Below are positions 162-41,837 of a stretch of DNA of 64,000 bases, piece by piece. Origin of the DNA: Candidatus Omnitrophota bacterium (GTDB lineage: Bacteria; Omnitrophota; Gorgyraeia; Zapsychrales; Fredricksoniimonadaceae); the NCBI GenBank assembly GCA_963828495.1, contig CAWHFJ010000009.1:106338-170337 (forward strand), given 5' to 3'. Position 1 is the first letter of the stretch. Each line of letters opens with the position of its first letter. Under the pieces are notes generated by a model. It was not told the origin of the DNA and made no database searches. It was given only the letters and a program-made list of their open reading frames with translations. Made by a program: the position numbers and the translations under genes.

Positions 162-1568
162 CTAATATAATGGCCGAAAGGCGGTCAAGCCTTTGGGAAT
201 AGTGAAGATGAATTTGGCGCCACGACCCGCCTGGGATTCTACACGCACACGCCCACCCTGGTCTTCTACCGCGGCTTTGACAATGGCCAACCCCACCCCT
301 GTTCCGCTATATTCATCCCCTGTATGCAGACGTTTAAAAATATCAAAAATTTCCTGATGATGCTTGGGGTCAATGCCGATCCCGTTATCTTCAACGGTAA
401 ATTCATACCCCTTGAGGTTATCACGCCAACTGATTTTCACCACAGGACGAGTCCCGGCGGGGACAAATTTAATCGCGTTACTGATAAGATTAAAAAATAC
501 AGCCGTGGTTTTAATGCGGTCACAAACGATTTGGGGCATGGGAGATCCCAGTTCAATGCGGGCTGATGCGTGTTGAATCATAAAATCGCAATTGGCAACG
601 GCCGCGTCAATGACCTCCTGAATAGAGCTACGCGTATAAGGATTTTTAACCCGGGATATCCTGGTCAACTCCAACATGTCCTTAATCAACGCATTAAGCC
701 GCGTGGCCCCACGGCGCACACCGCTGATACAATCCTGGCCTTTTTTGTCCAGCTGCGCAGCATAGTGCCCTTCCAAATAAGCCCCATAACCGACGATGGT
801 CGTCAAGGGACCCGCTATATCGTGGCTGACCGTATGCACAAACCTGTCGAGCTCCTGATTTAATTTTTCTAAATCCTTCTTCTGCCGGTTGATTTCTTCC
901 AAATTTTCCTTAAACACAAACAGCAATAACCCGAGCGTTGTACTTAAAACTAAACTAAACCAAAATATCTCATTGGACCTCTGACGCCTTTGCTCACTTT
1001 TGTTGACCGATTCATGCACCAGGCCCCATACCTGCTGGACAATGGCCTGGACGTGCCTCGACAGCCCTCTCTGGCGCAGGTCAATGGCGTCCAAATCTTC
1101 CAGTGACAGTTGAAACCCGCCTTTTTCCACCGCTATAAATATGGCCTCGACCGTACTGTCATACCGTTGGGTTTGATCGGCCCAACGCGCAAAAGAGTCC
1201 TTCAAAGATGACGGGATATCTCCCAGCGCATCCACACGGGCAATCTGAACATCGGACTGTTTAATGTACTGACCAAAAAGCCCTTCTAAGCCCTTCACAT
1301 AATCCGCTAAATATTGACTCCGCGACCCATTAACCTGACCAAACGCTAATTCTTCAGCAGCCCCTGAGAGCTTTTCAAAAATAATTTCCTTTTCCAGCTG
1401 TATCTCATTAAGCTGGGTGGCCGCCTCCATCAAAACCAAATCCACTTGGGCCACATGGTCAAACTCTACAAAAATATCGGCTAATTGGCTCAACCCCACC
1501 CAGGCCGTGGCTGTCAGGAAAGCCAGCAACAATAAAACCAAAACAAAAATTTTAGAGGAATTCTTCAT
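162..1568 (-). CDS. membrane sensor histidine kinase (helical extracytoplasmic sensor, HisKA + HATPase_c)
   Basis: N-terminal TM segment and a second TM near aa 195-215. H-box FVHTVSHDIAGPL. ATPase boxes NAIKF, EDNGIGI and GTGVGLAIV. Confidence 0.9.
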   Translation of the reverse strand: MKNSSKIFVLVLLLLAFLTATAWVGLSQLADIFVEFDHVAQVDLVLMEAATQLNEIQLEKEIIFEKLSGAAEELAFGQVNGSRSQYLADYVKGLEGLFGQYIKQSDVQIARVDALGDIPSSLKDSFARWADQTQRYDSTVEAIFIAVEKGGFQLSLEDLDAIDLRQRGLSRHVQAIVQQVWGLVHESVNKSEQRRQRSNEIFWFSLVLSTTLGLLLFVFKENLEEINRQKKDLEKLNQELDRFVHTVSHDIAGPLTTIVGYGAYLEGHYAAQLDKKGQDCISGVRRGATRLNALIKDMLELTRISRVKNPYTRSSIQEVIDAAVANCDFMIQHASARIELGSPMPQIVCDRIKTTAVFFNLISNAIKFVPAGTRPVVKISWRDNLKGYEFTVEDNGIGIDPKHHQEIFDIFKRLHTGDEYSGTGVGLAIVKAAVEDQGGRVRVESQAGRGAKFIFTIPKGLTAFRPLY

Positions 1569-2605
1569 AAGTGTTTGTGGGTCTGATAAAGACCAAACGC
1601 TACCACACGATTGCGCCCCTGAGATTTAGCGCGGTACAAAGCCCAATCCGCCTTGTCCATGAGCTCTTCTAAAAGTTTACCGTCGCTAGGATAGACCGCG
1701 ACCCCAATACTCAACGTCATATGCAGGCTATTGTCATACGCTTTGATCACTGTGTCCTGTGCGGCCTTACGGATACGTTCCGCCACCACACAAGAACCTT
1801 CCAAATCCGTATCCGGCAAAACCACACAAAACTCTTCTCCGCCGAAGCGTCCTACAATATCGATTTCACGCACACCTTCCTGGATAATACGGGCTATCTC
1901 TTTGAGCACCGCATCTCCGGTCAAATGCCCGTGCTGATCATTGACCATTTTAAAATGGTCGGCATCAATCATTAAAAAGGCAAGACTGCTCTTGTGAAGA
2001 CGCGAACGCTTGATTTCCTCATCAAAACGCTCGATAAAATAACGCCGGGTATAAACTCCTGTCAGGCCGTCGGTAATAGCCAGGGTTTCAATGTCCTTGT
2101 ATAGCTTCAGGCGCCGCAAGGCCAAAGCAAACTGATGCGCCAGGATCGCAAATTTCTCTTTGTCTTTGTCCTCCAAACCTTTGTATAACAACACCCCGAA
2201 TTTGCTTTCCTTGCTCTTGAGCACAAAAACCCCATAATCACTGGGTAAAATCCCGTCCTTAAAAGCCTCATCCACCTCATGCACCAATTGGCAGTCCGCT
2301 AGGTCCACGTTTTCATTTAATTTCTTACGAAAGATATCAAACGCTTCCTGTTCTTCCCAATGACGAGTGATTTCCTTGGTCATCTCATAAAGAGTAAATA
2401 TCTGCGACGCCTGATTTTCTAGCTTGGATTTTTCAGCCTGTGCTTTTTCTTTCTGTTCAATAATTTTTCCAAAAACATCCTTAGCCCCCAGCACATCCTC
2501 ATCCGCCCTCTGCTCCAGCCCCAAGACCACGAGCTTAGCTAAGTAAAAAACCACGGCCACAAAAGCTGCTGTGAGAATAATAAAAATATAAATCATGCGG
2601 CACAC
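1565..2605 (-). CDS. diguanylate cyclase (TM, coiled coil, GGDEF domain)
   Basis: GGEEF active site (RFGGEEFCVVLP) with an RxxD I-site (REID) five residues upstream. A 4-nt ATGA overlap joins it to the downstream kinase gene. Confidence 0.9.
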   Translation of the reverse strand: MCRMIYIFIILTAAFVAVVFYLAKLVVLGLEQRADEDVLGAKDVFGKIIEQKEKAQAEKSKLENQASQIFTLYEMTKEITRHWEEQEAFDIFRKKLNENVDLADCQLVHEVDEAFKDGILPSDYGVFVLKSKESKFGVLLYKGLEDKDKEKFAILAHQFALALRRLKLYKDIETLAITDGLTGVYTRRYFIERFDEEIKRSRLHKSSLAFLMIDADHFKMVNDQHGHLTGDAVLKEIARIIQEGVREIDIVGRFGGEEFCVVLPDTDLEGSCVVAERIRKAAQDTVIKAYDNSLHMTLSIGVAVYPSDGKLLEELMDKADWALYRAKSQGRNRVVAFGLYQTHKHL

Positions 2606-3885
2606 ACCTTGTTGCGTCCGGTTTCTTTAGCTTGATACAGCGCCTCATCCGCCTTATAAATCAAATCCTCTTTCGACCGGGCATCAACGGGAAAAGAGGC
2701 GACACCGATGGAGACTGTCACATAGGTTTTCTGCCGGCGCAGGGTGATTTCATGCGTTTCAATTTTTTCCCTGAGTTTATTGGCCAACTGCACGGCTTTA
2801 GATTTGGGACAATTCGGCAGTAAAATGCAAAACTCTTCCCCCCCGTAACGGCATAGCAAATCTCCCGGGTCACTGAATTGCTCTTCCATCAGATGGGCTA
2901 CACTCTTTAGCACGATGTCCCCGGCTATGTGGCCGAAAGAATCATTATATTTTTTAAAACGGTCTAAATCAATCATCATAAAGACAAGCTCGGCCCCTAC
3001 GCGTATGCCCCGGGCAATTTCTTCATTGAGACGTTCCAGCATATGCCGGCGAAGATACAACCCGGTCAGCCCGTCTTTAATGGCCATGGTCTCCAGACGT
3101 TCGTACAGCTGCGCATTTTCAATGGCGATGGACGTCACATCCGCAATGGTCCGTAAAAACCGCAAATCATCTGTGGCAAAGTGGCGCGCCACGGTGCTCT
3201 CCACGCGTAGAATGCCCAGTGTTTTTTCCCCCACAATAAGGGGGGTGGAAATGAGCGAACGAATAAGACGTTTCTCTTCCGCTCCTATTTTATCCAGATC
3301 AAAACGGAAATCCGTATGAACGTCCTCCACGAGCAGAGGATGCATGGTCTTGATGACAAACTGATCGAAAATATCCCCCTTTTTGGCCTTGAGATCGACT
3401 TGCATCTGCCCTTTTTGAGAAGAAGAAAGCCCCAGTTCGCCGGTGGTGGAATGGAATAAATACAAAATCACGGTCACATCTTTATGGCCGAAAAGACGAC
3501 TGACCTCGACAGACAAAGTATTCGATGTCTCCTCCAGGCTCAAACACAGGCTTAATTTTTCGGTCAATTCTTTTAAATGTGCATAACTGATGATCTTCTG
3601 GCGCAGAGACTCGATGGTTTCCCATTCACGCTGCAATTCGGCTTTCAGCAAATTGGCACGCTCAAAATACTCCTCTTTCTGCAAAGCAATGTGCGACTGT
3701 TTTTTTTGCAGACGTCTGTGAAAAGCCATCAATAAAAAAATATTGATCAAAAGGGCAGCTGCCAGGAAGAAATAGGCCGCGGGATTGTGAGATGCGTAAA
3801 CAAAAAAACCCACTAAAGGGACTAGGAAAGAAAAAACAACTAGGAAATACAGCCTAGATAATGGTTTCTTCGGTTTTCGAATCAA
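2593..3885 (-). CDS. diguanylate cyclase with two TM segments, coiled coil, GAF and GGDEF domains
   Basis: RYGGEEFCILLP active site and a GAF-like region (LISTPLIVGEKTLGILRVES). It overlaps both neighbouring genes. Confidence 0.9.
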   Translation of the reverse strand: MIRKPKKPLSRLYFLVVFSFLVPLVGFFVYASHNPAAYFFLAAALLINIFLLMAFHRRLQKKQSHIALQKEEYFERANLLKAELQREWETIESLRQKIISYAHLKELTEKLSLCLSLEETSNTLSVEVSRLFGHKDVTVILYLFHSTTGELGLSSSQKGQMQVDLKAKKGDIFDQFVIKTMHPLLVEDVHTDFRFDLDKIGAEEKRLIRSLISTPLIVGEKTLGILRVESTVARHFATDDLRFLRTIADVTSIAIENAQLYERLETMAIKDGLTGLYLRRHMLERLNEEIARGIRVGAELVFMMIDLDRFKKYNDSFGHIAGDIVLKSVAHLMEEQFSDPGDLLCRYGGEEFCILLPNCPKSKAVQLANKLREKIETHEITLRRQKTYVTVSIGVASFPVDARSKEDLIYKADEALYQAKETGRNKVCAA

Positions 3886-16529: not shown

Positions 16530-16556
16530 TTAGCACTCTAAGCCTATAAGTGCTAA
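16530..16556. promoter_or_regulatory. CIRCE operator upstream of clpB
   Basis: TTAGCACTC-N9-AAGTGCTAA, 1 mismatch to consensus. It overlaps the last codons of the comEC ORF. Confidence 0.8.
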
Positions 16557-17678
16557 TATACCACAAATCTCTTGTTTGTCAAGCAGCTGACTAAATACGG
16601 CACGTCCTACATGAACTAGATTCCCGCTTTCGCGGGAATGACATTGTACCATACTTAATTGAATATACCCCAACGGCACCTGGGAAAACCAATAGGCTAC
16701 GACGACCATCAAATTAAAAACCACTTTCAAACATCCGGCCAAGACCCACGCTGTTGCGGGCATACACAACCCGGCCAGCGCTAAAGACAATCCTAAGGCG
16801 ACTGTTAAATCCAATAAAGGCACAATAAAAATATTGGCTATCAAAGCGACCGGCGTGATAGTGCCGAAATGCCATAATTGCAAAGGCGTAATCCCGATCC
16901 ACGCGGCCGTGGACACCGCAAACACAGATGCCAGCCACCTGGGGCAAAAGGACAGTGGCTTTTCTATAGGCCCGTACAAAATCACAATCGCAGCCACCGC
17001 AGCAAAAGAAAGTTGAAAACCCGTATCAAATAGATTACGCGCATCCATTAACAATAAAACCAACGCTGCCAAGGCCAAAGAATTTAACGAATCACTTTCA
17101 TATTCAAGGGCATGCGCGGCCAAGACGACCGACGCCATAAACGCCGCACGCATCACCGGGATTGAGCCGCCGGTCAAAATCGCAAAGATAAATAAAAGCA
17201 AAATACTGCCCCCCATTTGCAAGGAGCGGGGAATCCTTATCAATTTTAAAACGAAAAAAATCATGGCTGTCATCATGGCCATGTGCAGCCCCGCGATCAC
17301 TAAAATATGCCCGGTGCCGGTATGCCGAAAAACCATATTGATTTCTTTGGGGATATGGCCCCGGTCCCCTAACACGATGGCCGACATAGTCCCTGCTTCA
17401 TTGTCATTAAGATACTGATACAGCGAAGTCTTTAATTGCCCGCGCCAGCCCTCCAGAACATCGATACCCGGCGGATGGGCGACGTGGATCAGTGCCGCTC
17501 CCAGACAAAATAAACCTATATAAAGAGGCCACATTTTAGGACGGAACAAAAAGAACACCATTAACGCTGAAGATGTGATTAGCCAGAAAGCCAAGCCAAA
17601 CGGCAGAAAGTGCCCTATGAAAATACCTGATGACAAAACCACAACCAGCCAGCAGCAGGGTCGGTGTGTCATGTTCAT
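16530..17678 (-). CDS. comEC: ComEC/Rec2-family DNA internalisation channel (competence domain only)
   Basis: Polytopic membrane protein with FRHTGTGHILVIAGLHM. Start set at ATG 17678 (MNMTHRP), which forms an ATGA overlap with the comEA stop. Confidence 0.85.
   Translation of the reverse strand: MNMTHRPCCWLVVVLSSGIFIGHFLPFGLAFWLITSSALMVFFLFRPKMWPLYIGLFCLGAALIHVAHPPGIDVLEGWRGQLKTSLYQYLNDNEAGTMSAIVLGDRGHIPKEINMVFRHTGTGHILVIAGLHMAMMTAMIFFVLKLIRIPRSLQMGGSILLLFIFAILTGGSIPVMRAAFMASVVLAAHALEYESDSLNSLALAALVLLLMDARNLFDTGFQLSFAAVAAIVILYGPIEKPLSFCPRWLASVFAVSTAAWIGITPLQLWHFGTITPVALIANIFIVPLLDLTVALGLSLALAGLCMPATAWVLAGCLKVVFNLMVVVAYWFSQVPLGYIQLSMVQCHSRESGNLVHVGRAVFSQLLDKQEICGILALIGLEC
16555..16582 (-). 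promoter_or_regulatory. sigma70-type promoter of clpB
   Basis: On the minus strand TTGACA (16582..16577), a 16-nt spacer, then TATATT (16560..16555) running into CIRCE. It has the same CTTGACAAACA -35 context as the hrcA promoter. Confidence 0.65.
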
Positions 17679-17998
17679 AATGCTATAAGCTCCTTGATGC
17701 GCCCAAAACGTTTGGCCGTCAGACCTTTGACTTTGCATAAATCGTCCAACCTCATAAAAGGCCCGTGCTGCCGACGGTAATCCACGATCCTCCTGGCTAG
17801 GGTCGCCCCCACGCCCGGCAACATTTGAAATTCACAGTCCCTTGCGGTATTAATGTGGATCTTAAATTGCCGCAACTGTTTGGCCCAGCGCACAGGGGCG
17901 ATGTCCCGGCGCAAAAGCAACTGCACGCCGGCACCGGCGATAAAAATGATCATCACAATCGCGATAAACTTGCGTTCCTGCGGCGTTAAATAAAACAT
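17675..17998 (-). CDS. comEA: ComEA-family helix-hairpin-helix DNA-binding protein
   Basis: N-terminal TM segment and a C-terminal HhH region (LPGVGATLARRIVDYRRQHGPF..LDDLCKVKGL). Confidence 0.85.
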   Translation of the reverse strand: MFYLTPQERKFIAIVMIIFIAGAGVQLLLRRDIAPVRWAKQLRQFKIHINTARDCEFQMLPGVGATLARRIVDYRRQHGPFMRLDDLCKVKGLTAKRFGRIKELIAL

Positions 17999-24104: not shown

Positions 24105-24773
24105 TTAGGCATCCGGCGGCACAACAACCTCAAAACCTTCTGCCAGGCGCTGATAATAAACGCCTCCCCAGACAAAATAATTAACTCCGTCAGCCATCAC
24201 TATCTGATAATCCGGGGGGAGATAATCAACCACGGCACCAACGACAGGGCCAATAGTCACTAATTGATCCCCCTCTTGCTGATAAAAAACACCCTCGCTA
24301 TAAAAGTATGTTTGGCCATCTACCACGACCTCCTCTAAGTCATCCGGGACAACAATAGCAGGGCTTACAGGAATGTAGGTGACCCTCTCCTCATAATATT
24401 TATACAAATCTCTATCGTAATTACGCTGTGGGTACTGCCCACGATGTTGGGGCTCAACGCGTACCGGCCCTGCTACATTCATAGGCACTTCATGCTGAGG
24501 CGGCCCTACCCGATGCTGGGGCGGCTCTACCCGATGCTGGGGCTCAACGCGTACCGGCCCTGCTACATTCATAGGCGCTTCGTGCTGGGGTAGCTGCACA
24601 CGACGTTGGGGCTCAACGCGTACCGGCGGTACTACATTCATATGGACTTGATGTGGTAGGGGCTGCATGCCTGCATTTTCCCAAGAGGCATAAGCCGGTA
24701 CTGATGCGCCTGCGAGAAGGGCCGTAAAGAACAGTGTGCTAAACACCGTGTTGATATTTTTTATGGGTTTCAT
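24105..24773 (-). CDS. secreted protein with tandem Pro/Gln/His-rich repeats and a Tyr-rich C-terminal domain
   Basis: Signal peptide MKPIKNINTVFSTLFFTALLAGASVPAYA (start at ATG 24773 with a GGGAGG RBS). The repeat MNVAGPVRVEPQHR occurs about three times. No family recognised. Confidence 0.7.
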   Translation of the reverse strand: MKPIKNINTVFSTLFFTALLAGASVPAYASWENAGMQPLPHQVHMNVVPPVRVEPQRRVQLPQHEAPMNVAGPVRVEPQHRVEPPQHRVGPPQHEVPMNVAGPVRVEPQHRGQYPQRNYDRDLYKYYEERVTYIPVSPAIVVPDDLEEVVVDGQTYFYSEGVFYQQEGDQLVTIGPVVGAVVDYLPPDYQIVMADGVNYFVWGGVYYQRLAEGFEVVVPPDA

Positions 24774-24846
24774 GGTTGCCTCCCTGCCCCGCTGGGCTCT
24801 TCCCATCCTTCACCCATTTAGACACTAAAAACCCCTTGAAAGTTCC

Positions 24847-26704
24847 CTATTTTCTTAAATAGATCATCAACAGCACAATAGCCGCCGGAGTCATCCCGGA
24901 AATCCGGTTAGCCTGACCTAACGTAATGGGATTAAAACGGTTAAGCTTCTCTGTGATTTCTTTGGAAAGTCCGGGGATCCTGTTAAAATCAAAGCCCGGC
25001 GGTATCCGGATATATTCAATATGCTTAAACTTTTCCACTTCCTTGTGTTGACGGCGGATAAAACCTTCATACTTAATTTCATATTCGACCTGAGCGATCA
25101 CCTGCCGGCCTAATTTTTCCAGCGTCCCGTCAAAGCCCGCAATCATATCATAAGTAATTTCCGGCCTTTTGAGCAAATCATAGAGTGAAATCGACTGCTT
25201 CAGAGGCGCACTGTCTACCTTTTTAAGAATGTCATCCAGTAATGTCCCCGGAGGGATCTTTGTTAAACGTAAATGTTCTATTTCCTTCTCAATGGCCGCG
25301 TATTTGGCCGTAACTTGATCATAATCTTGGGGTAACAAAAGTCCCAGGTGATGCCCGTATTGCGCCAGACGTTTGTCTGCATTGTCCTCGCGCACGATCA
25401 GGCGATACTCCACCCTCGATGTAAACATGCGATAAGGCTCCTCGGTCCCGCGAGTGACCAAATCATCAATCAACACTCCGATATAAGATTCATGGCGGCC
25501 TAAAATAAGCGGCTCTTTGTCTTGAACTTGCAAAGCGGCATTGATCCCGGCGACCAGGCCCTGGGCAGCGGCTTCTTCATAACCGGTTGTCCCGTTAATC
25601 TGGCCTGCTAAAAACAAGCCCTTGATTTTCTTGGTTTCCAATGTCGGCTTTAATTCCGTCGCCGGCACCACCCCATGCTCAATAGAATAGCCGGGACGGA
25701 CAATCACGGCTTGCCCAAGTCCGGGGATGGAGTGGACCATCTCTTCCTGCACATGGGCCGGAAGACCGGTGGAGATACCGTTAGGATAATACTCAAAAGT
25801 ATCCAACCCTTCGGGCTCCAGAAAAACATGATGCGTAGGCTTGTCCGCGAATTTCTTTAATTTATCTTCAATGGAGGGACAATACCGTACGCCGGTGGCC
25901 TTAATCTGACCGGAATACATCGGGGAGAGATGAAAATTCGCCCGGATAATGTCATGGGTGCGTTGGGTCGTATGCGTAATATGGCAAGATAAAAGTTTTC
26001 GTTCTTTGGGAATAAAAGGCGTTCTAAAAGAAAACGGCACAATAGGATCGTCAGACGCCTGGTACTCCATACCCGTAAAATCAATGGTACGTCCATCCAG
26101 GCGCGGGGGTGTGCCGGTCTTAAACATCATGATCTGGAAGCCCAGATCGCGGATACAGCGGGCCAAGCGTATGGATGCCTGTTCATTGATACGGCCGCCG
26201 GAGGTAATCTGTGGCTCCGATATGGATGCGCCCGTCTAAAAAAGTGCCTGTGGCGATAATCACCGTCGGGGCTTCTACATGCAAACCACTAACGGTCTTA
26301 ATACCCTTAACTTGTCCCCCGGCCACCAGAAGATCACAGACTTCATCTTCAATAACAGTCAAATGCGGCTGATTTAAGACCACATGTTGCATATACAAAC
26401 GGTATTGCTTGCGGTCTGCCTGGCAGCGGGACGAACGCACCGCCTGGCCTTTGGAGGCATTTAATTGCCTAAATTGGATCCCTGTGCGGTCGGCGGCCAG
26501 ACCCATTTCCCCGCCTAAAGCATCGATCTCTTTGACTAACTGGCCTTTGCCGACACCTCCGATGGCGGGATTACAGCTCATCTGTCCGATGGTGTCACGG
26601 CTCAAGGTCACCATGGCCGTCGCAAGGCCCATGCGGGCTGGCGCTAAAGCCGCCTCAATGCCGGCATGTCCGGCGCCTATAACGATGCAATCAAATGAAT
26701 TCAT
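24847..26704 (-). pseudogene. mnmG: tRNA uridine 5-carboxymethylaminomethyl modification enzyme MnmG, split by one frameshift (ORFs 26183..26704 and 24847..26166)
   Basis: The N-terminal fragment carries the FAD motif VIGAGHAGIEAA. The C-terminal fragment carries KTGTPPRLD. The shifted frame reads through the junction as ITSGGRINEQASIRLARCIRDLGF. Confidence 0.9.
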
Positions 26705-27155: not shown

Positions 27156-28484
27156 TTATTTGATCCAACCTGCGACGGTCTGCCATAATAAATAGACATT
27201 TAATACAATAATCACGGCCGTCACTATCCATGCGAGCACTTGAAGCCATGCGGAATTCACAAAGCTTCCCATTTTCTTCTTGTCCGATGTGAACACAACC
27301 AGCGGGACTACCGCGAAACCCAATTGAAGGGATAAAATAACCTGACTAAAAATCAGCAAATCCCCTGTCCCCTTTTCCCCATACATCGAAGCCACAATCA
27401 CCGCAGGGACAATCGCGATTGATCTCGTTAACAGGCGCCTGACCCACGGACGCAGGCGGATATTCAAAAAGCCCTCCATGACGATTTGGCCTGCTAATGT
27501 CCCTGTCAGCGTCGAGTTTTGCCCCGATGCTAAAAGGGCAATCGCAAATACAATGCTGGCCATGGACGCGCCTAAAACCGGCGTTAATAAATTATACGCA
27601 TCATGGATGTCGGCCACATCCTGGTGACCGGTACCGTGAAAGGCCGCAGCACTCAGGATCAAGATCGCGGCATTAATAAAAAACGCACAAAACAAAGCGA
27701 AAGCCGAGTCTATGCCTGCGAAATGCACGGCCATCTTTTTGCCTTCTTCATTGCGTTCATACGCCCTGGTTTGCACAATACTCGAATGCAAATACAAATT
27801 ATGCGGCATGACCGTGGCCCCTAAAATGCCAACCGCAATATATAACATGCCGGGATTAGTGACGATCTCGGGTTTAGGCAATAAATTAGCAAAAAACAGC
27901 GGTAAGGAAGGATTGGCAATCATCATCTCATAGGCAAAACTCCCTGCGATTAATAATATTAAACCCGCTACCAAAGATTCAATAACGCGGAATCCCTTAT
28001 ACTGCAAAAATAAAATGACAAGCACATCCATCGCGGTTAGCAAAACACCTATTACAAGAGGAAGATGAAAAAGCAGATTCAAGGCAATGGCAGAGCCGAT
28101 GACCTCAGCCAAATCACACGCGGCAATAGCGATCTCACATCCCACCCACAACATGAAAGATACCGGTTGACTATAATGGTCCCGGCAAGCCTGGGCTAAA
28201 TCACGGTCGGTGACAATACCCAGCTTTAACGCCAAATGTTGCAGTAAAATGGCGATAAAATTGGAAAACAATATCACGGACAGTAAAATATAGCCGTATT
28301 TAGCCCCACCGGCTAAATCCGTCGCCCAGTTGCCCGGATCCATGTAACCGACCGCCACCATGAGTCCGGGCCCCAAAAAAGCCAGCATCTTACGCCCCCA
28401 ACTGGCATGGGCATCCACACGGATACTCGAATGGACTTCCGATAGGCTTACTGTTTTGCTCTCCTGCCGCCAGCCTAATCTCAT
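27156..28484 (-). CDS. mntH: Nramp-family divalent metal (Mn2+/Fe2+) transporter
   Basis: Motif GPGLMVAVGYMDPGNWATDL, 11-12 TM segments, length 442 aa. Confidence 0.92.
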   Translation of the reverse strand: MRLGWRQESKTVSLSEVHSSIRVDAHASWGRKMLAFLGPGLMVAVGYMDPGNWATDLAGGAKYGYILLSVILFSNFIAILLQHLALKLGIVTDRDLAQACRDHYSQPVSFMLWVGCEIAIAACDLAEVIGSAIALNLLFHLPLVIGVLLTAMDVLVILFLQYKGFRVIESLVAGLILLIAGSFAYEMMIANPSLPLFFANLLPKPEIVTNPGMLYIAVGILGATVMPHNLYLHSSIVQTRAYERNEEGKKMAVHFAGIDSAFALFCAFFINAAILILSAAAFHGTGHQDVADIHDAYNLLTPVLGASMASIVFAIALLASGQNSTLTGTLAGQIVMEGFLNIRLRPWVRRLLTRSIAIVPAVIVASMYGEKGTGDLLIFSQVILSLQLGFAVVPLVVFTSDKKKMGSFVNSAWLQVLAWIVTAVIIVLNVYLLWQTVAGWIK

Positions 28485-28492
28485 ATATTCTC

Positions 28493-29854
28493 CTAGGAAT
28501 ATCCTTTCGAGTATCCAATATCAATAATCCCTCTCCTAACCAAATCTTCTATCGAATCTTTCATGAACTGCATCCCTTGGTCTTTCCCCCTTAATATGTA
28601 ATCAGGAATTTGTTTCCAGTCGCCGTCACGGATCATTTTCCTTCCGGTATCATTCATCAAGAACACTTCTACAGCCGGCACCAAGCCTGCCTCTCCGACA
28701 ATGCGAGGGAAAAGTTCTTGAACAATAATGCCATTTAACACCAGGGAAAGCCGGGTCAAAATATGTTTCTGGGTCTCCGCAGGGAAAAAGGATACCACCC
28801 GATCCAAAACCTGAGAAATGCTGGCCGAATGAATGGTGGTTAAAACTAACATCCCTGACTCGGCCGCAGTCAACACCAGCTCCAGAGTTTCTACGTCTAG
28901 AGTTTCGCCTATAATCAACACATCAGGATTTTGTCTTAACGCATTACGGATAGCTGATGCGTACGAAATGGTGTCGCGGCCCAATTCTCTTTGTTTAATA
29001 ATGCATCCTCTTTGTTCTTGAATATATTCGATGGGGTCTTCAATGCTGATGATGACACCGTTAATAAGTTTACCTAAATAACTTACGAGTGAAGCCAGTG
29101 TCGTTGTTTTCCCTGATCCCGTCCGACCGGCAATAACAATGAGCCCTCTATGGCTATCTCTCATCAAGCGTTCTGTAACGCCGGGAAGCCCTAATTGGGA
29201 AGGGGTGGGAATTTTTGCATTCACAATGCGACAAATAGCCTCTACCCTACCCTGCTGGACATGTATATTAAACCTTAATCTTTTCTCTTTATAAGTAAGG
29301 ATAAAATTTATATCTTTAGACTTCATAAACTTGGCATAACTATCGTCATCCAAGAGATTCAGCAATAAATTTTTCACCGTGTATTCATCTAAAACTCTCC
29401 CTACATTTTTCAATTCTCCCATCGTCTTTACAATAATGGGGTGCCCCGCCATAAAATGGACATCCATAACATTTTGGAGATCGACGCTATCCAGAAGAGC
29501 ATAAATATTAATCTCGTGTAAAAAAGTTATTAATTTCTCTTTGTCCTGTTCTTTGATATCCTTTATCTGGGTACCCACAAGGTACTGCCTGGAGCCTGTT
29601 TTATCAATTTGGAGCCTAACAACGGATGCCGTAAAAGATATCTTCTCATTATCTGAAACATAGCAACTGATCCTGAGGGTGGAATTCAATTTAAATTCCT
29701 TATTGTCATAAAAGCCAAGTCCTCTGGCTGAGATATCAAAAGCTTCTGTGGCCACAGGAGTACCATAACGCTCATCCCCCAGATATTCCTCATACTGAAT
29801 GGTATTTTTATACTTAAGGCGTTGGTCTTTCCTTTGATTAGATTTTGTCTGCAT
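28493..29854 (-). CDS. PilZ domain fused to a PilT/PilU-type hexameric ATPase
   Basis: N-terminal PilZ motifs RKDQR and DISARG. PilT N-domain. Walker A GRTGSGKTTT, Asp box SIEDPIEY, Walker B DVLIIGE, His box LTTIHS. Confidence 0.85.
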   Translation of the reverse strand: MQTKSNQRKDQRLKYKNTIQYEEYLGDERYGTPVATEAFDISARGLGFYDNKEFKLNSTLRISCYVSDNEKISFTASVVRLQIDKTGSRQYLVGTQIKDIKEQDKEKLITFLHEINIYALLDSVDLQNVMDVHFMAGHPIIVKTMGELKNVGRVLDEYTVKNLLLNLLDDDSYAKFMKSKDINFILTYKEKRLRFNIHVQQGRVEAICRIVNAKIPTPSQLGLPGVTERLMRDSHRGLIVIAGRTGSGKTTTLASLVSYLGKLINGVIISIEDPIEYIQEQRGCIIKQRELGRDTISYASAIRNALRQNPDVLIIGETLDVETLELVLTAAESGMLVLTTIHSASISQVLDRVVSFFPAETQKHILTRLSLVLNGIIVQELFPRIVGEAGLVPAVEVFLMNDTGRKMIRDGDWKQIPDYILRGKDQGMQFMKDSIEDLVRRGIIDIGYSKGYS

Positions 29855-29955
29855 ACAGACCTCCTGTTTATACTATCTTCAAACAAATTATAGTAACTTT
29901 TTGGATGACTTTAATCAATATTTACTTAATTTGCTTAAGGAGAATAAAAAAAATA

Positions 29956-30963
29956 TTACGAGGAAGGATGCGCGCAGGACTCGCGCACAATCAAATCAGG
30001 AGCAAAGACTTTGTGGACTACACCTTTTTGCTTACCGGTCATAATTTCATAAATCACTTTTGTCGCCTCTTCCCCCATGGTAAACAACGGCTGTTTGATC
30101 GTCGTCAATCCAACAGGGCCAAACAAGCCGGCGGGATTATCATCAAACCCGATAATCGAAATATCTTCAGGGACTTTAATACCGTTTTCCATGGCGACCG
30201 AAATAATCTCCAAAGCCATGTCATCGCTAGCCGCAAAAATAGCCGTGGGAGGATTATCCAAAGAAAAAAAACGTTCGGATGCCAAACGGGCCGACCGACG
30301 GGAATAGTCCCCCTTATACACATAATCCGGCGGAGAGTCGATCCCATGCACAGCCAAGGCATTCTGGAAACCCTCAAACCTGTCTATGCCCGCCTGTGTC
30401 TGCATATTACCGGTGATGGTGGCGATACGCTTGTGGCCTAAATTGACCAGATATTCCGCCGCCGTAAAACCGCCTTTGACATTGTCCACGGCAATGTAGC
30501 TCACTTCTAAATCTTTGACAATATGGTTAAGGACCAGGCAAGGGGTCGCTTCACGTATGGCTGATTCAACCTGAGTCCGGTTTTCAATGATATCTGCGAA
30601 GATAAGACCTCCGGCATAACTCGAGCGTAACGGATTAGTCCCGTCAGTAATATGAAAAATTAAATCTAACCGCAGGGTTTCGCAACCATGGCCGATGCCG
30701 CGTATCAACTCCACGGCATAAAAAGAATGAAAAATACCGGGATACCCGGGCATAACAAAGCCGATGGCCGTGTTCTCTATCCCACGGGCCAAACGTTGGG
30801 CCGTAGGGTTGGGCTTGAACTTTAACTCGGTGATGACCTGTTGCACACGTTGGGCGACTTCTTTATTGACCGTGGGGACTTTATTGAGGACGCGGGAAAC
30901 GGTGGTGATGGAAACTTTTGCCCGTCTGGCGACATCAGTTATGCTTATTTTTTTTTCGACCAC
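29956..30963 (-). CDS. LacI-family transcriptional regulator
   Basis: N-terminal HTH ITDVARRAKVSITTVSRVLN followed by a periplasmic-binding-protein-like sugar-binding core. Confidence 0.9.
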   Translation of the reverse strand: MVEKKISITDVARRAKVSITTVSRVLNKVPTVNKEVAQRVQQVITELKFKPNPTAQRLARGIENTAIGFVMPGYPGIFHSFYAVELIRGIGHGCETLRLDLIFHITDGTNPLRSSYAGGLIFADIIENRTQVESAIREATPCLVLNHIVKDLEVSYIAVDNVKGGFTAAEYLVNLGHKRIATITGNMQTQAGIDRFEGFQNALAVHGIDSPPDYVYKGDYSRRSARLASERFFSLDNPPTAIFAASDDMALEIISVAMENGIKVPEDISIIGFDDNPAGLFGPVGLTTIKQPLFTMGEEATKVIYEIMTGKQKGVVHKVFAPDLIVRESCAHPSS

Positions 30964-39167: not shown

Positions 39168-39521
39168 TTAAGTTGGAAGGCTTTCTTGGGTGAGTTTAAA
39201 AAGACGTTGCATTTTAAGAAAATTCACTTGAGGGAATTCCAGTCCGATATCCCAAAAAGATAAATCCAGGGATTTTGCCCTCACCACGCGACCATTGAGA
39301 ATCATCGGCTCTCCGCCATCCGGCAATTCAACCTGCAAAGAAAGCTGATCATCTAAAAAAAACCGTTCTTTGCTCAAAATACGCGCACCGCTGGCCGAAG
39401 CATCTCTTAAAAAAACATCGTTCCCGTAATCCTCGCGTGAATCTTTAAATTTTGCCGGGAAACGGGCTGAAAACCGCTCAAATATCCTGCGATCTTCCTT
39501 TATTGGGGTGTCATCCGACAT
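39168..39521 (-). CDS. single-domain PilZ protein
   Basis: PilZ motifs RRIFER and DASASG. Start set at ATG 39521, which has an AAGGA RBS 8 nt upstream. Confidence 0.8.
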   Translation of the reverse strand: MSDDTPIKEDRRIFERFSARFPAKFKDSREDYGNDVFLRDASASGARILSKERFFLDDQLSLQVELPDGGEPMILNGRVVRAKSLDLSFWDIGLEFPQVNFLKMQRLFKLTQESLPT

Positions 39522-39538
39522 AGCCGTAATCCTTAACT

Positions 39539-39880
39539 TTATTCTTCCCAACGTTTTGAAGAAAAGTACCTATCCAAACGGTTAGGAGAACCCGAAATAA
39601 TCTCTGAAAAAACCATGCCTACCCGGTATTGGTCAGAATCGTCCAGTTTGCGTACCCACTTCACAACCCCAATGACCATAACAGGTTCTGTGTTTGGACG
39701 AAGAATGATTTCAAGCGCTATTCTCTGATTGATCCCAATGTTTTGGGAAGAAAGAAACCCAATCCCATGCCGACTGATATCTACTGTTTGAGTCTGATCA
39801 AATTCGGAACCGCTTTTACTTTCTACGGGAACAAAACAATGATGCCTTGCTTCCGCACGTTGGTTGACCTCAGCTTCCAT
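39539..39880 (-). CDS. single-domain PilZ protein
   Basis: PilZ motifs RAEAR and DISRHG. Length 113 aa. Confidence 0.8.
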   Translation of the reverse strand: MEAEVNQRAEARHHCFVPVESKSGSEFDQTQTVDISRHGIGFLSSQNIGINQRIALEIILRPNTEPVMVIGVVKWVRKLDDSDQYRVGMVFSEIISGSPNRLDRYFSSKRWEE

Positions 39881-39917
39881 ACAAGCTCCCTGCTTTTAGA
39901 TATAAAAATTATATTAT

Positions 39918-39931
39918 TGAAAGCGCTTCCC
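39918..39931. promoter_or_regulatory. candidate LacI-family operator upstream of the PilZ/glycan genes
   Basis: TGAAAGCGCTTCCC compared with the generic LacI/CcpA-type pattern TGnAAnCGnTTnCA. The core AAGCGCTT is a perfect palindrome. It is adjacent to a minus-strand TATAAT at 39908..39913. Confidence 0.3.
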
Positions 39932-40106
39932 TCACCTATAGTTTAAAACATATTTGCTAAAAAGCAAATCAAAATATAAATATCCTAAAAATCTGCAAGT
40001 TCTTGATGTTGTTGGGGTTATAGAAAATCCCGAAATTTTAACAAAAAAAATATAAATAATTAAAATCCGGTGTTCTTTTTTTGCTCTTTTTTTAACTTCA
40101 TTTTTA

Positions 40107-40135
40107 TTGCAGCCTATTTACGCTAATGCTATACT
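40107..40135 (+). promoter_or_regulatory. sigma70-type promoter of the only plus-strand block
   Basis: TTGCAG (40107..40112), a 17-nt spacer, then TATACT (40130..40135). The ATG at 40145 is only 9 nt downstream with no RBS, so the transcript would be leaderless or nearly so. Confidence 0.5.
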
Positions 40136-40144
40136 GTTTTCATT

Positions 40145-40345
40145 ATGCCGCAAAATTCTTCTTCTCCCAAGAACGAACAACTTTCTTTGGCAGAATACGC
40201 CAAAATTAAAGAAAAATTAGCTAAATCCAAACTTAAACTGTCTTTCCCGTGGATCATCAAAGCCTGTTTCATCATTCCCTTGCTCTACGTTGCATTCCTT
40301 ATTATCTATTACTTGGTGCATCTGCGTTTTTTACCGGAACATTAA
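40145..40345 (+). CDS. small single-TM membrane protein, hypothetical
   Basis: 66-aa ORF with a Lys-rich N-terminus and one TM segment. Its stop overlaps the next start (TAAATG). Confidence 0.45.
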   Translation: MPQNSSSPKNEQLSLAEYAKIKEKLAKSKLKLSFPWIIKACFIIPLLYVAFLIIYYLVHLRFLPEH

Positions 40346-40734
40346 ATGACTATTACTGATTATATCATCCTGGTCTTAAGCCTTTTCTTACTGGCGCGTG
40401 GCGCCGCGCGCGGATTTATACGTTCTTTGCTCGCTCCTATTTCTCTTATAATAACAACTATCCTCAGTATTCTTTATTATCAAGCCACTCACGACTTGAT
40501 CGTAAGCCTCTTATCGGATTATTGGGCCCTATCCTTCTGCATTATCTTTTAAAATTCTTCTTAAAACATTCGCCAAGAGCCACCAATACGAACACACGCC
40601 CCGGGCTTCTTCAGCAGTTTCGCGGGCGGCGTCCTTACGTTGGCCTGGGGCTGGGTATTTATTGCATTACCCTTATATTATTAGCCCTGTTTCCGGCCAA
40701 AGAAAATTTTTGGACGCCTTACACAATGATGTAA
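40346..40734 (+). pseudogene. cvpA: CvpA-family membrane protein, fragmented across reading frames
   Basis: N-terminus MTITDYIILVLSLFLLARGAARGFIRSLL is CvpA-like. The sequence continues in other frames (GPILLHYLLKFF.., then FSSFAGGVLTLAWGWVFIAL back in the original frame). Confidence 0.6.
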
Positions 40735-40768
40735 TTACTTCAATTTCTTACAAAATCACCGCCATGCC

Positions 40769-41074
40769 ATGGGAGGAAAACTTTTACCTATATTCAAAGA
40801 ACCGTCTACCCTGATAAAACTCGTCTGTCTTCAAACAGCTGACACGCAGTCCTTGGCGCAAGACCCGCGTTTCCAAAAAATCCTGCAGGATGCTGAAATC
40901 CAACAAGAAATCAACGGCCATGATATGGCCAAATTGATGAGCAATCCCAAAATAATGGCCTTGACCCAACAGATCATGACCGACCCTGAAATGCTCAAAA
41001 AAGTTATGGCCGTCTGGCAAAACCAGCCAGAAATCCCCCTCACCGTAACAAGCGCCGCTGGATCTCGCTCTTGA
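40769..41074 (+). CDS. hypothetical protein with STI1/DP-like helical repeats; possibly the C-terminal part of the disrupted cvpA-like gene (same frame as 40346)
   Basis: DPRFQKILQDAEIQQ..NPKIMALTQQIMTDPEMLKKVM pattern. It converges on and overlaps the 3' end of the response regulator gene. Confidence 0.4.
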   Translation: MGGKLLPIFKEPSTLIKLVCLQTADTQSLAQDPRFQKILQDAEIQQEINGHDMAKLMSNPKIMALTQQIMTDPEMLKKVMAVWQNQPEIPLTVTSAAGSRS

Positions 41075-41429
41075 TATCCTCCGGAGAACAAGGCTTCGCC
41101 AGAATCCCATTCATGCCTGAGTCCCAACATTCCAGCATCATGCTCGAGACTTGTCCGCGCATATACGCCGTTATAGCAACGATCGGTGTTTCTTTGTCCA
41201 TCTTGCGGATCATCTGGGAGGTTTTATAACCGTCCAGCTTAGGCATACGGATATCCATGAGGATGAGATCAAATTTTTCTGCCTGTATTTTCTCGAGAGC
41301 CTGTTGCCCATCCGCACAAAGCACAAGCCTGCATCCCATTTCTCCGATGACGATCTCCATAAAATATCGGCTAGCTTCATCATCTTCCACATACAAAATT
41401 CTTTTGTCTGCTAACGATGTGTCCACCAT
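41040..41429 (-). CDS. single-domain response regulator (REC only)
   Basis: Acidic pocket VEDDE, phospho-acceptor LILMDIRMP, and conserved T (AITAY) and K (AKP). Confidence 0.88.
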   Translation of the reverse strand: MVDTSLADKRILYVEDDEASRYFMEIVIGEMGCRLVLCADGQQALEKIQAEKFDLILMDIRMPKLDGYKTSQMIRKMDKETPIVAITAYMRGQVSSMMLECWDSGMNGILAKPCSPEDIKSEIQRRLLR

Positions 41430-41443
41430 ATTTTCCCCCTACT

Positions 41444-41827: not shown

Positions 41828-41837
41828 TCTGACGCCC

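What the first reader, a model, noticed from the sequence alone, without database searches (positions are those of the whole stretch)
28493..29854. PilZ domain fused to the N-terminus of a PilT-type ATPase, encoded alone without other pilus genes
One 453-aa ORF combines two parts:
- A canonical c-di-GMP-binding PilZ signature (RKDQR ... DISARG).
- A complete PilT/PilU-type motor (Walker A GRTGSGKTTT, Asp box, Walker B, His box).

In characterised systems c-di-GMP reaches type IV pilus or T2SS ATPases through MshEN domains or through separate PilZ/FimX adaptor proteins. To my knowledge a covalent PilZ-PilT has not been characterised.

No pilB, pilC, pilM-Q or pilin genes are nearby. The neighbours are mntH and a LacI regulator.

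By hand counts of 60-nt lines, the PilZ and N-domain part (about 29040..29850) runs roughly 23-43 percent GC. The ATPase core and adjacent genes run roughly 42-60 percent. This would fit a domain acquisition or relaxed composition.
Basis: partly seen in the sequence, partly recalled or inferred. Interest (0 to 1): 0.55.

Follow-up and report, generated by a model that had tools for sequence, protein, structure and literature searches.

The report
PilZ sensor fused to PilT motor
This gene from an uncultured Omnitrophota bacterium joins a c-di-GMP-sensing PilZ domain directly to a PilT-type pilus-retraction ATPase, a conserved but unstudied architecture that would let the second messenger act directly on the retraction motor.

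Summary
ORF 28493-29854 (-) encodes 453 aa. Residues 6-112 are a PilZ domain (Pfam 41.7 bits, cutoff 22.5) with RKDQR and DISARG motifs. Residues 116-445 are a PilT-family ATPase.

It is not an indel artefact. Five independent short-read contigs match the gene without gaps. More than 110 homolog clusters (41-100% identity, 447-461 aa) share the architecture, almost all labelled Omnitrophota. The core family is monophyletic (100/100 NJ bootstraps).

The c-di-GMP-contacting residues are almost invariant (R8 61/63, R12 63/63, D/N40 62/63, G45 59/63). The window also encodes two GGEEF diguanylate cyclases and two single-domain PilZ proteins.

The same gradient occurs in 10 of the 11 orthologous loci examined (very weakly in one of them) and follows amino-acid composition. 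"Encoded alone" holds for this window, but relatives sit beside pilB-pilB-pilins, a prepilin gene or a Che cluster.

Best reading (about 0.55): a type IVa pilus retraction ATPase directly gated by c-di-GMP. I found no paper describing it. Reviews place c-di-GMP input on extension ATPases and list V. cholerae PilT as non-binding. Verdict: new variant of a known kind, moderate interest.

The parts
28493..29854 (-). Complete PilZ-PilT ORF (453 aa plus stop codon)
   Evidence: ORF. (domains). (identical protein on five other contigs). (gap-free DNA match).
29860..29865 (-). Shine-Dalgarno AGGAGG, 5 nt upstream of the ATG
   Evidence: Read from the sequence.
29519..29839 (-). PilZ domain (residues 6-112): beta-barrel 18-100 plus C-terminal helix 102-114
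   Evidence: Pfam PF07238 at 41.7 bits. AF2 models with pLDDT 88-89. Foldseek top hits are all c-di-GMP-binding PilZ domains: MotI, Alg44, MrkH, YcgR, MapZ.
29819..29833 (-). RxxxR motif (R8-K-D-Q-R12)
   Evidence: R8 conserved in 61/63 and R12 in 63/63 family members.
29720..29737 (-). [D/N]xSxxG motif (D40-I-S-A-R-G45)
   Evidence: D40 is 58 D plus 4 N. S42 is 36 S, 22 G, 4 T. G45 is 59/63.
29486..29551 (-). Junction (residues 102-123): PilZ C-terminal helix, a 2-residue turn, then the first helix of PilT
   Evidence: DSSP on the model shows H102-114 and H117-123, with 10-residue-block pLDDT of 95, 92 and 85 across residues 101-130. F111, L121 and N/D116 are conserved.
29180..29509 (-). PilT N-terminal domain (residues 116-225)
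   Evidence: TIGR01420 alignment covers 118-445. PDB PilT alignments. Foldseek to PilT4 6ojy_B gives TM 0.91 and rmsd 1.8 A.
28496..29179 (-). PilT C-terminal ATPase domain (residues 226-453)
29105..29128 (-). Walker A G-R-T-G-S-G-K-T. It has Arg where the canonical PilT sequences aligned here have Pro or Gly.
   Evidence: R244 in 60/63 family members. Among 19 PilT/PilU relatives without PilZ this position is Pro in 15 (G, A or S in the others).
28985..29041 (-). Asp box region (E272, E276, Q288-R289-E290)
   Evidence: All are invariant, 63/63.
28904..28924 (-). Walker B DVLIIGE (catalytic E317)
   Evidence: D311, G316 and E317 are 63/63.
28829..28861 (-). His box ESGMLVLTTIH. The first His (the TGH position) is replaced by Met. 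The second His (H342) is kept.
   Evidence: Position 335 is M/T/A/I, with 0/63 His. H342 is 61/63. 17 of the 19 PilZ-less relatives aligned have TGH.
28625..28648 (-). AIRNLIRE-like motif (T-G-R-K-M-I-R-D; family consensus A-x-R-R-I-I-R-[DE])
   Evidence: The two putative PilU sequences in the same alignment have PLISDLIFKG instead.
27156..28484 (-). Nramp/MntH gene. It starts 8 nt after the PilZ-PilT stop, so it is probably co-transcribed. This linkage is not conserved in relatives.
   Evidence: Different neighbours are seen.
29956..30963 (-). LacI-family regulator upstream, separated by a 101-nt intergenic gap
1565..3885 (-). Two diguanylate cyclase genes (GGDEF, and GAF-GGDEF), both with GGEEF active-site motifs. 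They are a possible source of the ligand.
39168..39880 (-). Two tandem single-domain PilZ genes, which are further c-di-GMP receptors in the same genome
   Evidence: PF07238 at 42.9 and 44.3 bits.

Best explanation
The gene encodes a PilT-type hexameric ATPase of the type IVa pilus machine. Its N-terminus carries a functional c-di-GMP-binding PilZ domain, joined through a short, conserved helix-turn-helix junction to the first helix of PilT.

Proposed mechanism:
- c-di-GMP is made by GGDEF enzymes such as the two in this window.
- It binds the RxxxR loop and the DxSxxG strand of PilZ.
- The resulting change in PilZ is passed through the rigid junction to the PilT N-domain.
- The N-domain's packing against the neighbouring C-domain sets the hexamer's conformational cycle.
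- So the messenger directly changes either retraction ATPase activity or the motor's access to the PilC/PilM platform.

My guess for the sign is a brake. High c-di-GMP would inhibit retraction and keep pili extended for attachment, by analogy with YcgR and MotI on the flagellar motor.

Shown here: the fusion itself, its conservation, intact ligand-binding motifs, intact core catalytic residues, the PilT fold, and the presence of cyclases.

Inferred: c-di-GMP binding, action on type IVa pili, allosteric coupling, and the sign of the effect.
For: - Domain calls above or near curated thresholds.
- AF2 full-length model with pLDDT 89.1 and pTM 0.80, and a confidently modelled junction.
- The ATPase part superposes on PilT4 (TM 0.91, rmsd 1.8 A) and on PilU.
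- The PilZ part matches c-di-GMP-bound PilZ structures. MotI is the top hit, followed by Alg44, MrkH, YcgR and MapZ.
- Ligand-contact residues are almost invariant across 63 members at 41-100% identity, although the PilZ domain is otherwise the least conserved part (mean column conservation 0.50 against 0.74 for the ATPase core).
- Catalytic E317, the Asp-box glutamates and Walker A lysine K249 are invariant.
- The AIRNLIRE-like motif is of PilT type rather than PilU type.
- In relatives the gene lies directly upstream of two MshEN-PilB genes and pilins, next to a prepilin gene, or next to a CheW-MCP-CheA-CheY cluster.
- Type IVa pilus genes occur in nearly all Omnitrophota genomes (PMC10066038).
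- The window holds two GGEEF cyclases and two further PilZ proteins.
Against: - No binding or activity data exist.
- TIGR01420 scores 304, below its 319 cutoff.
- The core family has lost the first His-box histidine (0/63) and has Arg instead of Pro in Walker A, so catalysis may be altered.
- More distant PilZ-PilT proteins lose the second histidine or Walker B as well. This hints that some members are regulators rather than motors.
- Most loci, this window included, have no adjacent pilus genes.
- I could not establish whether the same genomes also carry a canonical PilT (one search was uninformative).
Confidence: 0.55

Rival explanations
1. It is a regulatory PilT paralog rather than the working retraction motor. 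It would be a weak or inactive ATPase. When loaded with c-di-GMP it would occupy or vacate the PilC/PilM docking site, or form mixed assemblies with a canonical PilT/PilU. That would make it a clutch or competitor of PilB and PilT.
For: - Family-wide loss of the first His-box histidine, and P-to-R in Walker A.
- Distant members have further decay: P0126 and P0129 have N in place of the second His, and P0229 has DQ in place of GE in Walker B.
- The score is below the TIGR01420 cutoff.
- The review read (PMC11656802) reports that Walker-box-inactive V. cholerae PilT still supported retraction together with PilU.
Against: In the core family the Walker A lysine, Asp-box glutamates, Walker B glutamate and second histidine are 61-63/63 conserved. 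That is the pattern expected of an active enzyme. In L010 it is the only PilT-like gene next to pilB-pilB-pilins.
Confidence: 0.22
2. The PilZ domain is a c-di-GMP-independent protein-protein adaptor, like the PilZ proteins of Xanthomonas and Pseudomonas that bind PilB without binding the nucleotide. Here it would be tethered to PilT for localisation or partner binding.
For: Type IV pilus PilZ proteins that lack c-di-GMP binding are the founding members of the family (text on Xc1028/Xac1133; PMC8389850 listed). Some family members score below Pfam PilZ thresholds in the precomputed annotation.
Against: Those adaptors have lost the RxxxR loop. This family keeps RxxxR and [D/N]x[S/G]xxG at 92-100%, while the rest of the domain drifts. 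The structural neighbours are ligand-binding PilZ domains.
Confidence: 0.1
3. The ATPase serves a machine other than the type IVa pilus, for example a T2SS-like secretion or DNA-uptake apparatus, or another PilT-like-driven process of these ultra-small, possibly predatory bacteria. c-di-GMP would control that process.
For: - The L010 cluster pilin carries a T2SSG (pseudopilin) Pfam hit.
- The most recurrent synteny found (5 loci) is Asp kinase - PilZ-PilT - LeuA, which is unrelated to pili.
- A ComEC-like gene lies 11 kb away in the window.
- Secretion and pilus genes flank giant-protein loci in Omnitrophota.
Against: The best sequence and structure matches are PilT and PilU, not DotB, GspE or VirB11. 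A PilT-type AIRNLIRE-like motif is retained. A prepilin gene and a Che cluster are adjacent in some loci.
Confidence: 0.1
4. It is an artefactual fusion, created by an assembly or sequencing indel that joined a small PilZ gene to a pilT gene.
For: At least one gene in the window is frameshifted. mnmG is split at about 26170-26183.
Against: - The identical 453-aa protein is encoded on five independent short-read contigs, with no gaps across the gene.
- More than 110 homolog clusters of the same length carry both domains.
- The junction is conserved and confidently modelled.
Confidence: 0.01

Closest known systems
PilT retraction ATPases of type IVa pili (P. aeruginosa PilT 3JVV; G. metallireducens PilT4 6OJX/6OJY; A. 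aeolicus PilT 2EWV)
   Same: The two-domain PilT fold (TM 0.9) at 33-35% identity. Walker A lysine, Asp box, Walker B glutamate, second His-box histidine and an AIRNLIRE-like motif are shared.
   Different: It carries an extra 115-residue N-terminal PilZ domain. Walker A has Arg for Pro. The first His-box His is lost. It scores just below the TIGR01420 cutoff. The V. cholerae PilT is listed as not binding c-di-GMP.
MshE/PilB/PilF extension ATPases with N-terminal MshEN (GSPII) c-di-GMP-binding domains
   Same: A secretion-superfamily ATPase of a type IV pilus that carries its own N-terminal c-di-GMP receptor domain. The logic is the same, with the messenger acting directly on a pilus motor.
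   Different: The receptor fold differs: a PilZ beta-barrel instead of the helical MshEN, and there is no MshEN Pfam hit. The motor is the opposite one, of retraction type rather than extension type. According to the 2024 review, the extra N-terminal domain is what distinguishes extension from retraction ATPases.
PilZ-FimX-PilB complex (Xanthomonas, Pseudomonas)
   Same: A PilZ-fold protein physically attached to a type IV pilus ATPase and linked to c-di-GMP signalling.
   Different: There PilZ is a separate protein that lacks RxxxR and does not bind c-di-GMP. It binds the PilB N-terminal domain, and the nucleotide is sensed by the FimX EAL domain. Here PilZ is covalently fused, keeps the binding motifs, and sits on a PilT.
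YcgR (E. coli) and MotI/DgrA (B. subtilis) flagellar brake and clutch proteins
   Same: A ligand-binding PilZ domain that controls a motility motor. MotI is the top structural neighbour of this PilZ domain (TM 0.72).
   Different: Those are free proteins with an additional PilZN/YcgR_N domain, and they act on flagellar stator or rotor parts. Here PilZ is a single domain built into the motor ATPase of a pilus.
Other PilZ fusions to output enzymes (BcsA cellulose synthase C-terminal PilZ, Alg44, M. xanthus PilZ-DnaK)
   Same: The general principle of PilZ fused in cis to the protein it regulates.
   Different: The partner is different. In the literature searched, none of these fusions is to a secretion-superfamily ATPase.

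Membership tests
PilZ domain (Pfam PF07238), c-di-GMP-binding type | Profile HMM score above the gathering threshold | tested here: met
   41.7 bits against 22.5, residues 6-112.
PilZ domain (Pfam PF07238), c-di-GMP-binding type | N-terminal RxxxR motif | tested here: met
   R8-K-D-Q-R12. Conserved 61/63 and 63/63.
PilZ domain (Pfam PF07238), c-di-GMP-binding type | [D/N]xSxxG motif on the second or third strand | tested here: met
   D40-I-S-A-R-G45. D/N in 62/63, S/G/T in 62/63, G in 59/63.
PilZ domain (Pfam PF07238), c-di-GMP-binding type | Six-stranded beta-barrel followed by a C-terminal helix | tested here: met
   AF2 shows six strands (18-100) plus helix 102-115, pLDDT 87.9. Foldseek hits are PilZ domains of MotI, Alg44, MrkH, YcgR, MapZ and BcsA.
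PilZ domain (Pfam PF07238), c-di-GMP-binding type | Binds c-di-GMP | not testable with these tools
   Needs DRaCALA or ITC on the recombinant protein.
PilT/PilU family type IVa pilus ATPase (NCBIfam TIGR01420) | HMM score at or above the curated cutoff | tested here: not met
   304.2 bits against a cutoff of 319.1, full-length alignment 118-445 to model positions 3-330 of 343. It is a near miss and by far the best family.
PilT/PilU family type IVa pilus ATPase (NCBIfam TIGR01420) | Walker A, Asp box and Walker B catalytic residues | tested here: met
   K249, E272, E276 and E317 are invariant. Walker A has the variant G-R-T-G.
PilT/PilU family type IVa pilus ATPase (NCBIfam TIGR01420) | His box with two histidines (TGH...LH) | tested here: not met
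   The first His is replaced (M335; 0/63 His in the family). The second His (H342) is present in 61/63.
PilT/PilU family type IVa pilus ATPase (NCBIfam TIGR01420) | PilT-specific AIRNLIRE motif (absent in PilU) | tested here: inconclusive
   The window has T-G-R-K-M-I-R-D and the family has A-x-R-R-I-I-R-[DE]-G. The Arg, Ile-Arg and acidic positions are kept, which is closer to PilT than to the two putative PilU sequences, which have PLISDLIFKG.
PilT/PilU family type IVa pilus ATPase (NCBIfam TIGR01420) | Two-domain PilT fold | tested here: met
   Foldseek gives 6ojy_B TM 0.91, rmsd 1.8 A over 344 columns, and 3jvv TM 0.90.
PilT/PilU family type IVa pilus ATPase (NCBIfam TIGR01420) | Forms hexamers and powers pilus retraction | not testable with these tools
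   Needs biochemistry or genetics. Only a monomer could be modelled.
MshEN-type c-di-GMP-binding ATPases (MshE/PilB/GspE) | N-terminal MshEN/GSPII domain (PF05157) carrying the RLGxx(L/V/I)(L/V/I)xxG(L/V/I)(L/V/I)xxxxLxxxLxxQ motif | tested here: not met
   No PF05157 hit at E of 1 or less. GspE and PilB models match only the ATPase core at 76-82 bits. Not a member.
YcgR/MotI family | PilZN (YcgR_N) domain preceding PilZ; a free protein of about 220-250 aa | tested here: not met
   There is a single PilZ domain at the extreme N-terminus, followed by PilT, and no YcgR-type N-terminal domain hit. The resemblance is functional only.

The most novel reading that the evidence does not exclude
Omnitrophota have built a c-di-GMP-operated brake or clutch directly into the pilus retraction motor. 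It would be the pilus counterpart of YcgR/MotI on flagella and the mirror image of MshEN on extension ATPases. It would let these ultra-small, host-dependent bacteria lock pili in the extended, attached state, or trigger retraction, in response to the second messenger. The family-specific changes in the active site (Walker A Arg, loss of the first His-box His) would be part of the coupling mechanism.
Probability: 0.4. Interest if true: 0.65.

Novelty: new variant of a known kind. Interest (0 to 1): 0.5.

Why it matters
In the literature read here, c-di-GMP control of type IV pili acts on extension ATPases (MshEN domains, FimX/PilZ adaptors). The one retraction ATPase listed there, V. cholerae PilT, is recorded as not binding the messenger.

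A naturally fused PilZ-PilT, conserved across a whole candidate phylum, gives a single soluble protein in which direct second-messenger control of a retraction motor can be tested. Suitable assays are binding, ATPase activity, cryo-EM of the hexamer with and without c-di-GMP, and complementation of pilT mutants.

Omnitrophota are uncultured, ultra-small and probably predatory or parasitic, and nearly all encode type IVa pili. Regulation of retraction is therefore likely to bear on how they attach to hosts. Current annotation calls these proteins 'PilT/PilU family type 4a pilus ATPase' and so hides the sensor domain.

Tried and rejected
- Foldseek against AFDB50, to look for the architecture in other phyla: the library was unavailable.
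- PilZ-only profile against PDB sequences: no hit at E of 0.01 or less. The fold search was needed instead.
Only 4 of 80 loci were full-length family members, and the rest were canonical PilTs, so it gave no phylum-wide census.
- Apparent 1.8-2 kb 'long matches' in that scan: of six checked, three were adjacent pilB-pilT genes, two were ordinary single pilT genes and one check landed on an unrelated ORF. None was a fusion.
- Metagenome scan with a back-translated GRTGSGKTTT pattern: only 5 of 80 loci belonged to the family, so the pattern is not specific enough. It still added three contexts.
- Testing whether Omnitrophota also have a canonical PilT: the one candidate (L073, 'Omnitrophica WOR_2', in a pilQ-pilB-pilT cluster) has relatives that are unnamed or Opitutaceae. 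Co-occurrence stays unresolved.
- Sigma-70 promoter and terminator scan around the gene: nothing above shuffled expectation, and no clear promoter in the 101-nt upstream gap.
- Rfam scan of the window for a c-di-GMP riboswitch or other RNA: no hits.
- Functional link to mntH or LacI: rejected as general, because that neighbourhood is confined to near-identical contigs.
- Recent domain acquisition inferred from GC: rejected.
- PilZ-ATPase docking in the AF2 model: could not be examined, because the tool returns no coordinates or PAE.
Full report
**What is there**

The ORF at 28493-29854 on the minus strand is real. It starts with ATG, encodes 453 aa, and has AGGAGG 5 nt upstream of the start.

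Pfam places a PilZ domain at residues 6-112, at 41.7 bits against a gathering threshold of 22.5. It places a T2SSE ATPase core at 110.5 bits. NCBIfam aligns residues 118-445 end to end with TIGR01420 (PilT/PilU family). The score is 304.2 bits, just under the 319.1 cutoff and far above every other secretion ATPase model.

The best solved relatives by sequence are PilT proteins of Geobacter, Pseudomonas and Aquifex, and P. aeruginosa PilU (E 1e-55 to 1e-59, residues about 116-445).

An AlphaFold2 model built on 63 family members is confident (pLDDT 89.1, pTM 0.80). Its C-terminal 340 residues superpose on G. metallireducens PilT4 with TM 0.91 and rmsd 1.8 A. A separate model of residues 1-122 (pLDDT 87.9) finds only c-di-GMP-binding PilZ domains in the PDB. 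B. subtilis MotI is first, then Alg44, MrkH, YcgR, MapZ, VCA0042 and BcsA.

In the model, the PilZ C-terminal helix (102-114) is followed by a two-residue turn. The first helix of PilT (117-123) comes directly after it. The junction is well conserved (F111, N/D116, L121) and confidently modelled, so the two parts look rigidly coupled rather than loosely tethered.

**Not an artefact**

The window does contain at least one frameshifted gene: mnmG is split between 26183-26704 and 24847-26166. This ORF is sound:
- The identical protein is encoded on five independent short-read contigs from different sequencing runs.
- Those contigs are 99.7-99.95% identical to the window at the DNA level, with no gaps across the gene.

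**Organism and family**

The homology search returned more than 110 clusters (at 90% identity) with 41-100% identity and the same length (447-461 aa). Most carry precomputed PilZ+T2SSE annotations. Wherever a source names them, it is as 'PilT/PilU family type 4a pilus ATPase' from Candidatus Omnitrophota/Omnitrophica. One is labelled Elusimicrobiota, and one GTDB locus is labelled Planctomycetales.

A PilZ-only profile searched against 1.84 billion representatives found eight full-length PilZ+T2SSE representatives among its top 150 hits. Everything else was generic di-PilZ or YcgR-like proteins. The PilZ domain therefore has no close free-standing relatives.

In a neighbour-joining tree of the ATPase part, the core family (37% identity or more) is monophyletic in 100/100 bootstraps. 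Four distant PilZ-PilT proteins (30-35% identity) join it in the best tree, but with only 27/100 support. At least the core stems from one old fusion.

**Conservation pattern**

| Feature | Residues | Conservation (of 63) |
|---|---|---|
| PilZ RxxxR | R8, R12 | 61, 63 |
| PilZ [D/N]xSxxG | D/N40, S/G/T42, G45 | 62, 62, 59 |
| Walker A lysine | K249 | 63 |
| Asp box | E272, E276, Q288-R289-E290 | 63 each |
| Walker B | E317 | 63 |
| Second His-box His | H342 | 61 |

- PilZ is the least conserved part of the protein. Mean column conservation is 0.50, against 0.64 for the PilT N-domain and 0.74 for the ATPase core. The residues that contact c-di-GMP in characterised PilZ domains are nevertheless almost invariant.
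- The C-terminal motif reads A-x-R-R-I-I-R-[DE]-G. This is close to the PilT AIRNLIRE motif and unlike the two putative PilU sequences in the same alignment.
- Two substitutions set the core family apart from the other PilT, PilU and PilB sequences aligned. Walker A is G-R-T-G rather than G-P-T-G (R in 60/63). The first His-box histidine (TGH) is replaced by M/T/A/I (0/63 His).
- Some distant members have lost more. P0126 and P0129 lack the second histidine, and P0229 has a degenerate Walker B.

**Context**

In this window the gene lies between a LacI-type regulator (101-nt gap upstream) and mntH. The mntH start is 8 nt after the stop, with an AGGAG overlapping the stop codon.

No pilus gene occurs anywhere in the 64 kb.

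This neighbourhood is not conserved. Across about 17 distinct loci I found:
- Five with Asp kinase - PilZ-PilT - LeuA-like synthase synteny (L008, L013, L095, L129, L171).
- One with the gene directly upstream of two MshEN-PilB genes and two pilins (L010/L011).
- One with a canonical prepilin gene 121 nt upstream (L145).
- One next to a CheW-CheW-MCP-CheA-CheY cluster (L014).
- The rest among unrelated housekeeping genes.

An orphan pilT is common in bacteria (general knowledge), so isolation from pil genes is weak evidence in either direction.

Seymour et al. 2023 report type IVa pilus genes in nearly all Omnitrophota genomes, but they do not mention PilT, PilZ or c-di-GMP (PMC10066038).

The window itself shows that this organism uses c-di-GMP:
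- Two diguanylate cyclase genes with intact GGEEF motifs lie at 1565-2605 and 2593-3885, next to a histidine kinase.
- Two tandem single-domain PilZ genes lie at 39168-39880, beside two receiver proteins and a PAS-GAF histidine kinase.

**The GC argument**

The 5' half of the gene is indeed lower in GC, but only by about 6 points:

| Region | GC |
|---|---|
| PilZ | 0.386 |
| PilT N-domain | 0.379 |
| PilT C-domain | 0.443 |
| Whole window | 0.477 |

This does not indicate domain acquisition, for three reasons:
- The low region includes the PilT N-domain, which is not an acquired part.
- The same gradient is seen in 10 of the 11 orthologous loci examined, whose locus GC ranges from 0.37 to 0.53. 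It is only marginal in one of them (L014), and in L010 only the PilT N-domain is lower.
- It matches amino-acid composition. FYMINK residues make up 34-35% of the 5' half against 25% of the C-domain. GARP residues make up 16-18% against 24%.

**Mechanism**

The best-supported reading is a type IVa pilus retraction ATPase whose activity, or whose engagement with the machine, is directly controlled by c-di-GMP through the in-cis PilZ domain.

The PilZ domain occupies the N-terminal position that, in extension ATPases, is taken by the MshEN/GSPII domain. That domain binds c-di-GMP or platform proteins (PMC11656802). This looks like a convergent solution on the opposite motor.

The sign of the effect is a guess. 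By analogy with YcgR and MotI, and with the general rule that high c-di-GMP favours attachment, I favour inhibition of retraction.

The main rival is that the family is a regulatory, weakly active PilT paralog. The altered Walker A and His box suggest this, and so does the further decay in distant members. I could not determine whether the same genomes also hold a canonical PilT. The only nominally 'Omnitrophica' canonical PilT I found (L073, in a pilQ-pilB-pilT cluster) has relatives that are unnamed or Opitutaceae.

**Comparison with what is known, and novelty**

Searches of 8 million full texts for 'PilZ-PilT' and variants returned nothing. Other searches:
- The PilZ-domain survey by Galperin and Chou does not mention PilT or any secretion ATPase fusion.
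- The 2024 review of PilB regulation states that the extra N-terminal domain distinguishes extension from retraction ATPases, and places c-di-GMP input on the former.
- Romling's 2023 table lists V. cholerae PilT as 'no binding'.
- Omnitrophota genome papers do not mention the fusion.

The architecture exists silently in domain databases and is annotated simply as PilT. It appears undescribed and uncharacterised. It combines two well-known modules in a logical way, so I rate it a new variant of a known kind, not a new kind of system.

It is of moderate interest. It offers a clean, single-protein test of direct second-messenger control of pilus retraction, in a phylum where pili are probably central to a host-dependent lifestyle.

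Noticed in passing
window 24847-26704 (-): mnmG/gidA is split into two ORFs in different reading frames (26183-26704 and 24847-26166). This is a frameshift, either a real pseudogene or an assembly error.
   Followed up: partly
window 162-3885 (-): A histidine kinase is followed by two diguanylate cyclase genes (GGDEF, and GAF-GGDEF), both with intact GGEEF active sites. The start of each overlaps the end of the gene upstream of it.
   Followed up: partly
window 39168-44642 (-): Two tandem single-domain PilZ genes (127 and 113 aa, both with RxxxR and DxSxxG) lie about 1.2-2 kb downstream of two stand-alone receiver genes and a PAS-PAS-GAF-HisKA kinase. This may be a c-di-GMP and two-component signalling cluster.
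   Followed up: partly
window 60486-63250 (-): Two apparent gene fusions. One is RpiB (LacAB_rpiB) fused to serine hydroxymethyltransferase (566 aa). The other is Sua5/YrdC fused to a low-molecular-weight phosphotyrosine phosphatase (355 aa). From memory, these genes are neighbours in Bacillus (ywlC-ywlE-ywlF-glyA).
   Followed up: no
window 16530-17738 (-): A ComEC-like 'Competence' domain protein of only 402 aa lies 11 kb from the PilZ-PilT gene. Nearby ClpB-like (709 aa) and UvrD-like (487 aa) ORFs also look short for their families.
   Followed up: no
window 1-64000: Almost every ORF of 150 aa or more that looks like a gene is on the minus strand across the whole 64 kb.
   Followed up: no
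window 29847-29860: A 5-bp palindrome, GTCTG-TATG-CAGAC, places the PilZ-PilT start codon in the loop of a small hairpin just after the Shine-Dalgarno sequence. It may be chance.
   Followed up: no
P0126, P0129, P0195, P0229, P0263 (distant PilZ-PilT proteins): The more distant PilZ-PilT fusions show progressive loss of catalytic motifs. The second His-box His is replaced by N, P, K or Q, and P0229 has DQ in place of GE in Walker B. P0182 and P0195 keep a canonical PilT-type TGH His-box start and AIRNLIRE-like motif. P0182 also keeps GPTG in Walker A, while P0195 has GATG.
   Followed up: partly
L008, L013, L095, L129, L171: Synteny of phosphoglycerate mutase - (CstA) - aspartate kinase - PilZ-PilT - LeuA-like synthase is conserved across members only 40-55% identical to the query. 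It is an amino-acid-biosynthesis neighbourhood with no obvious link to pili. L095 also has single PilZ genes and an HD_5 (possibly HD-GYP) gene nearby.
   Followed up: partly
L014 4933-10295: In the contig labelled Elusimicrobiota, PilZ-PilT is followed by CheW, CheW, an MCP, CheA-REC and a REC gene, and it is preceded by another REC gene. This resembles a Pil-Chp/Frz-type chemosensory module.
   Followed up: no
window 24105-24806 (-): A DUF6515 protein carries a proline-rich tandem repeat (variants of PVRVEPQHRV, PPQHEV/A and PMNVAGP) in its N-terminal half.
   Followed up: no
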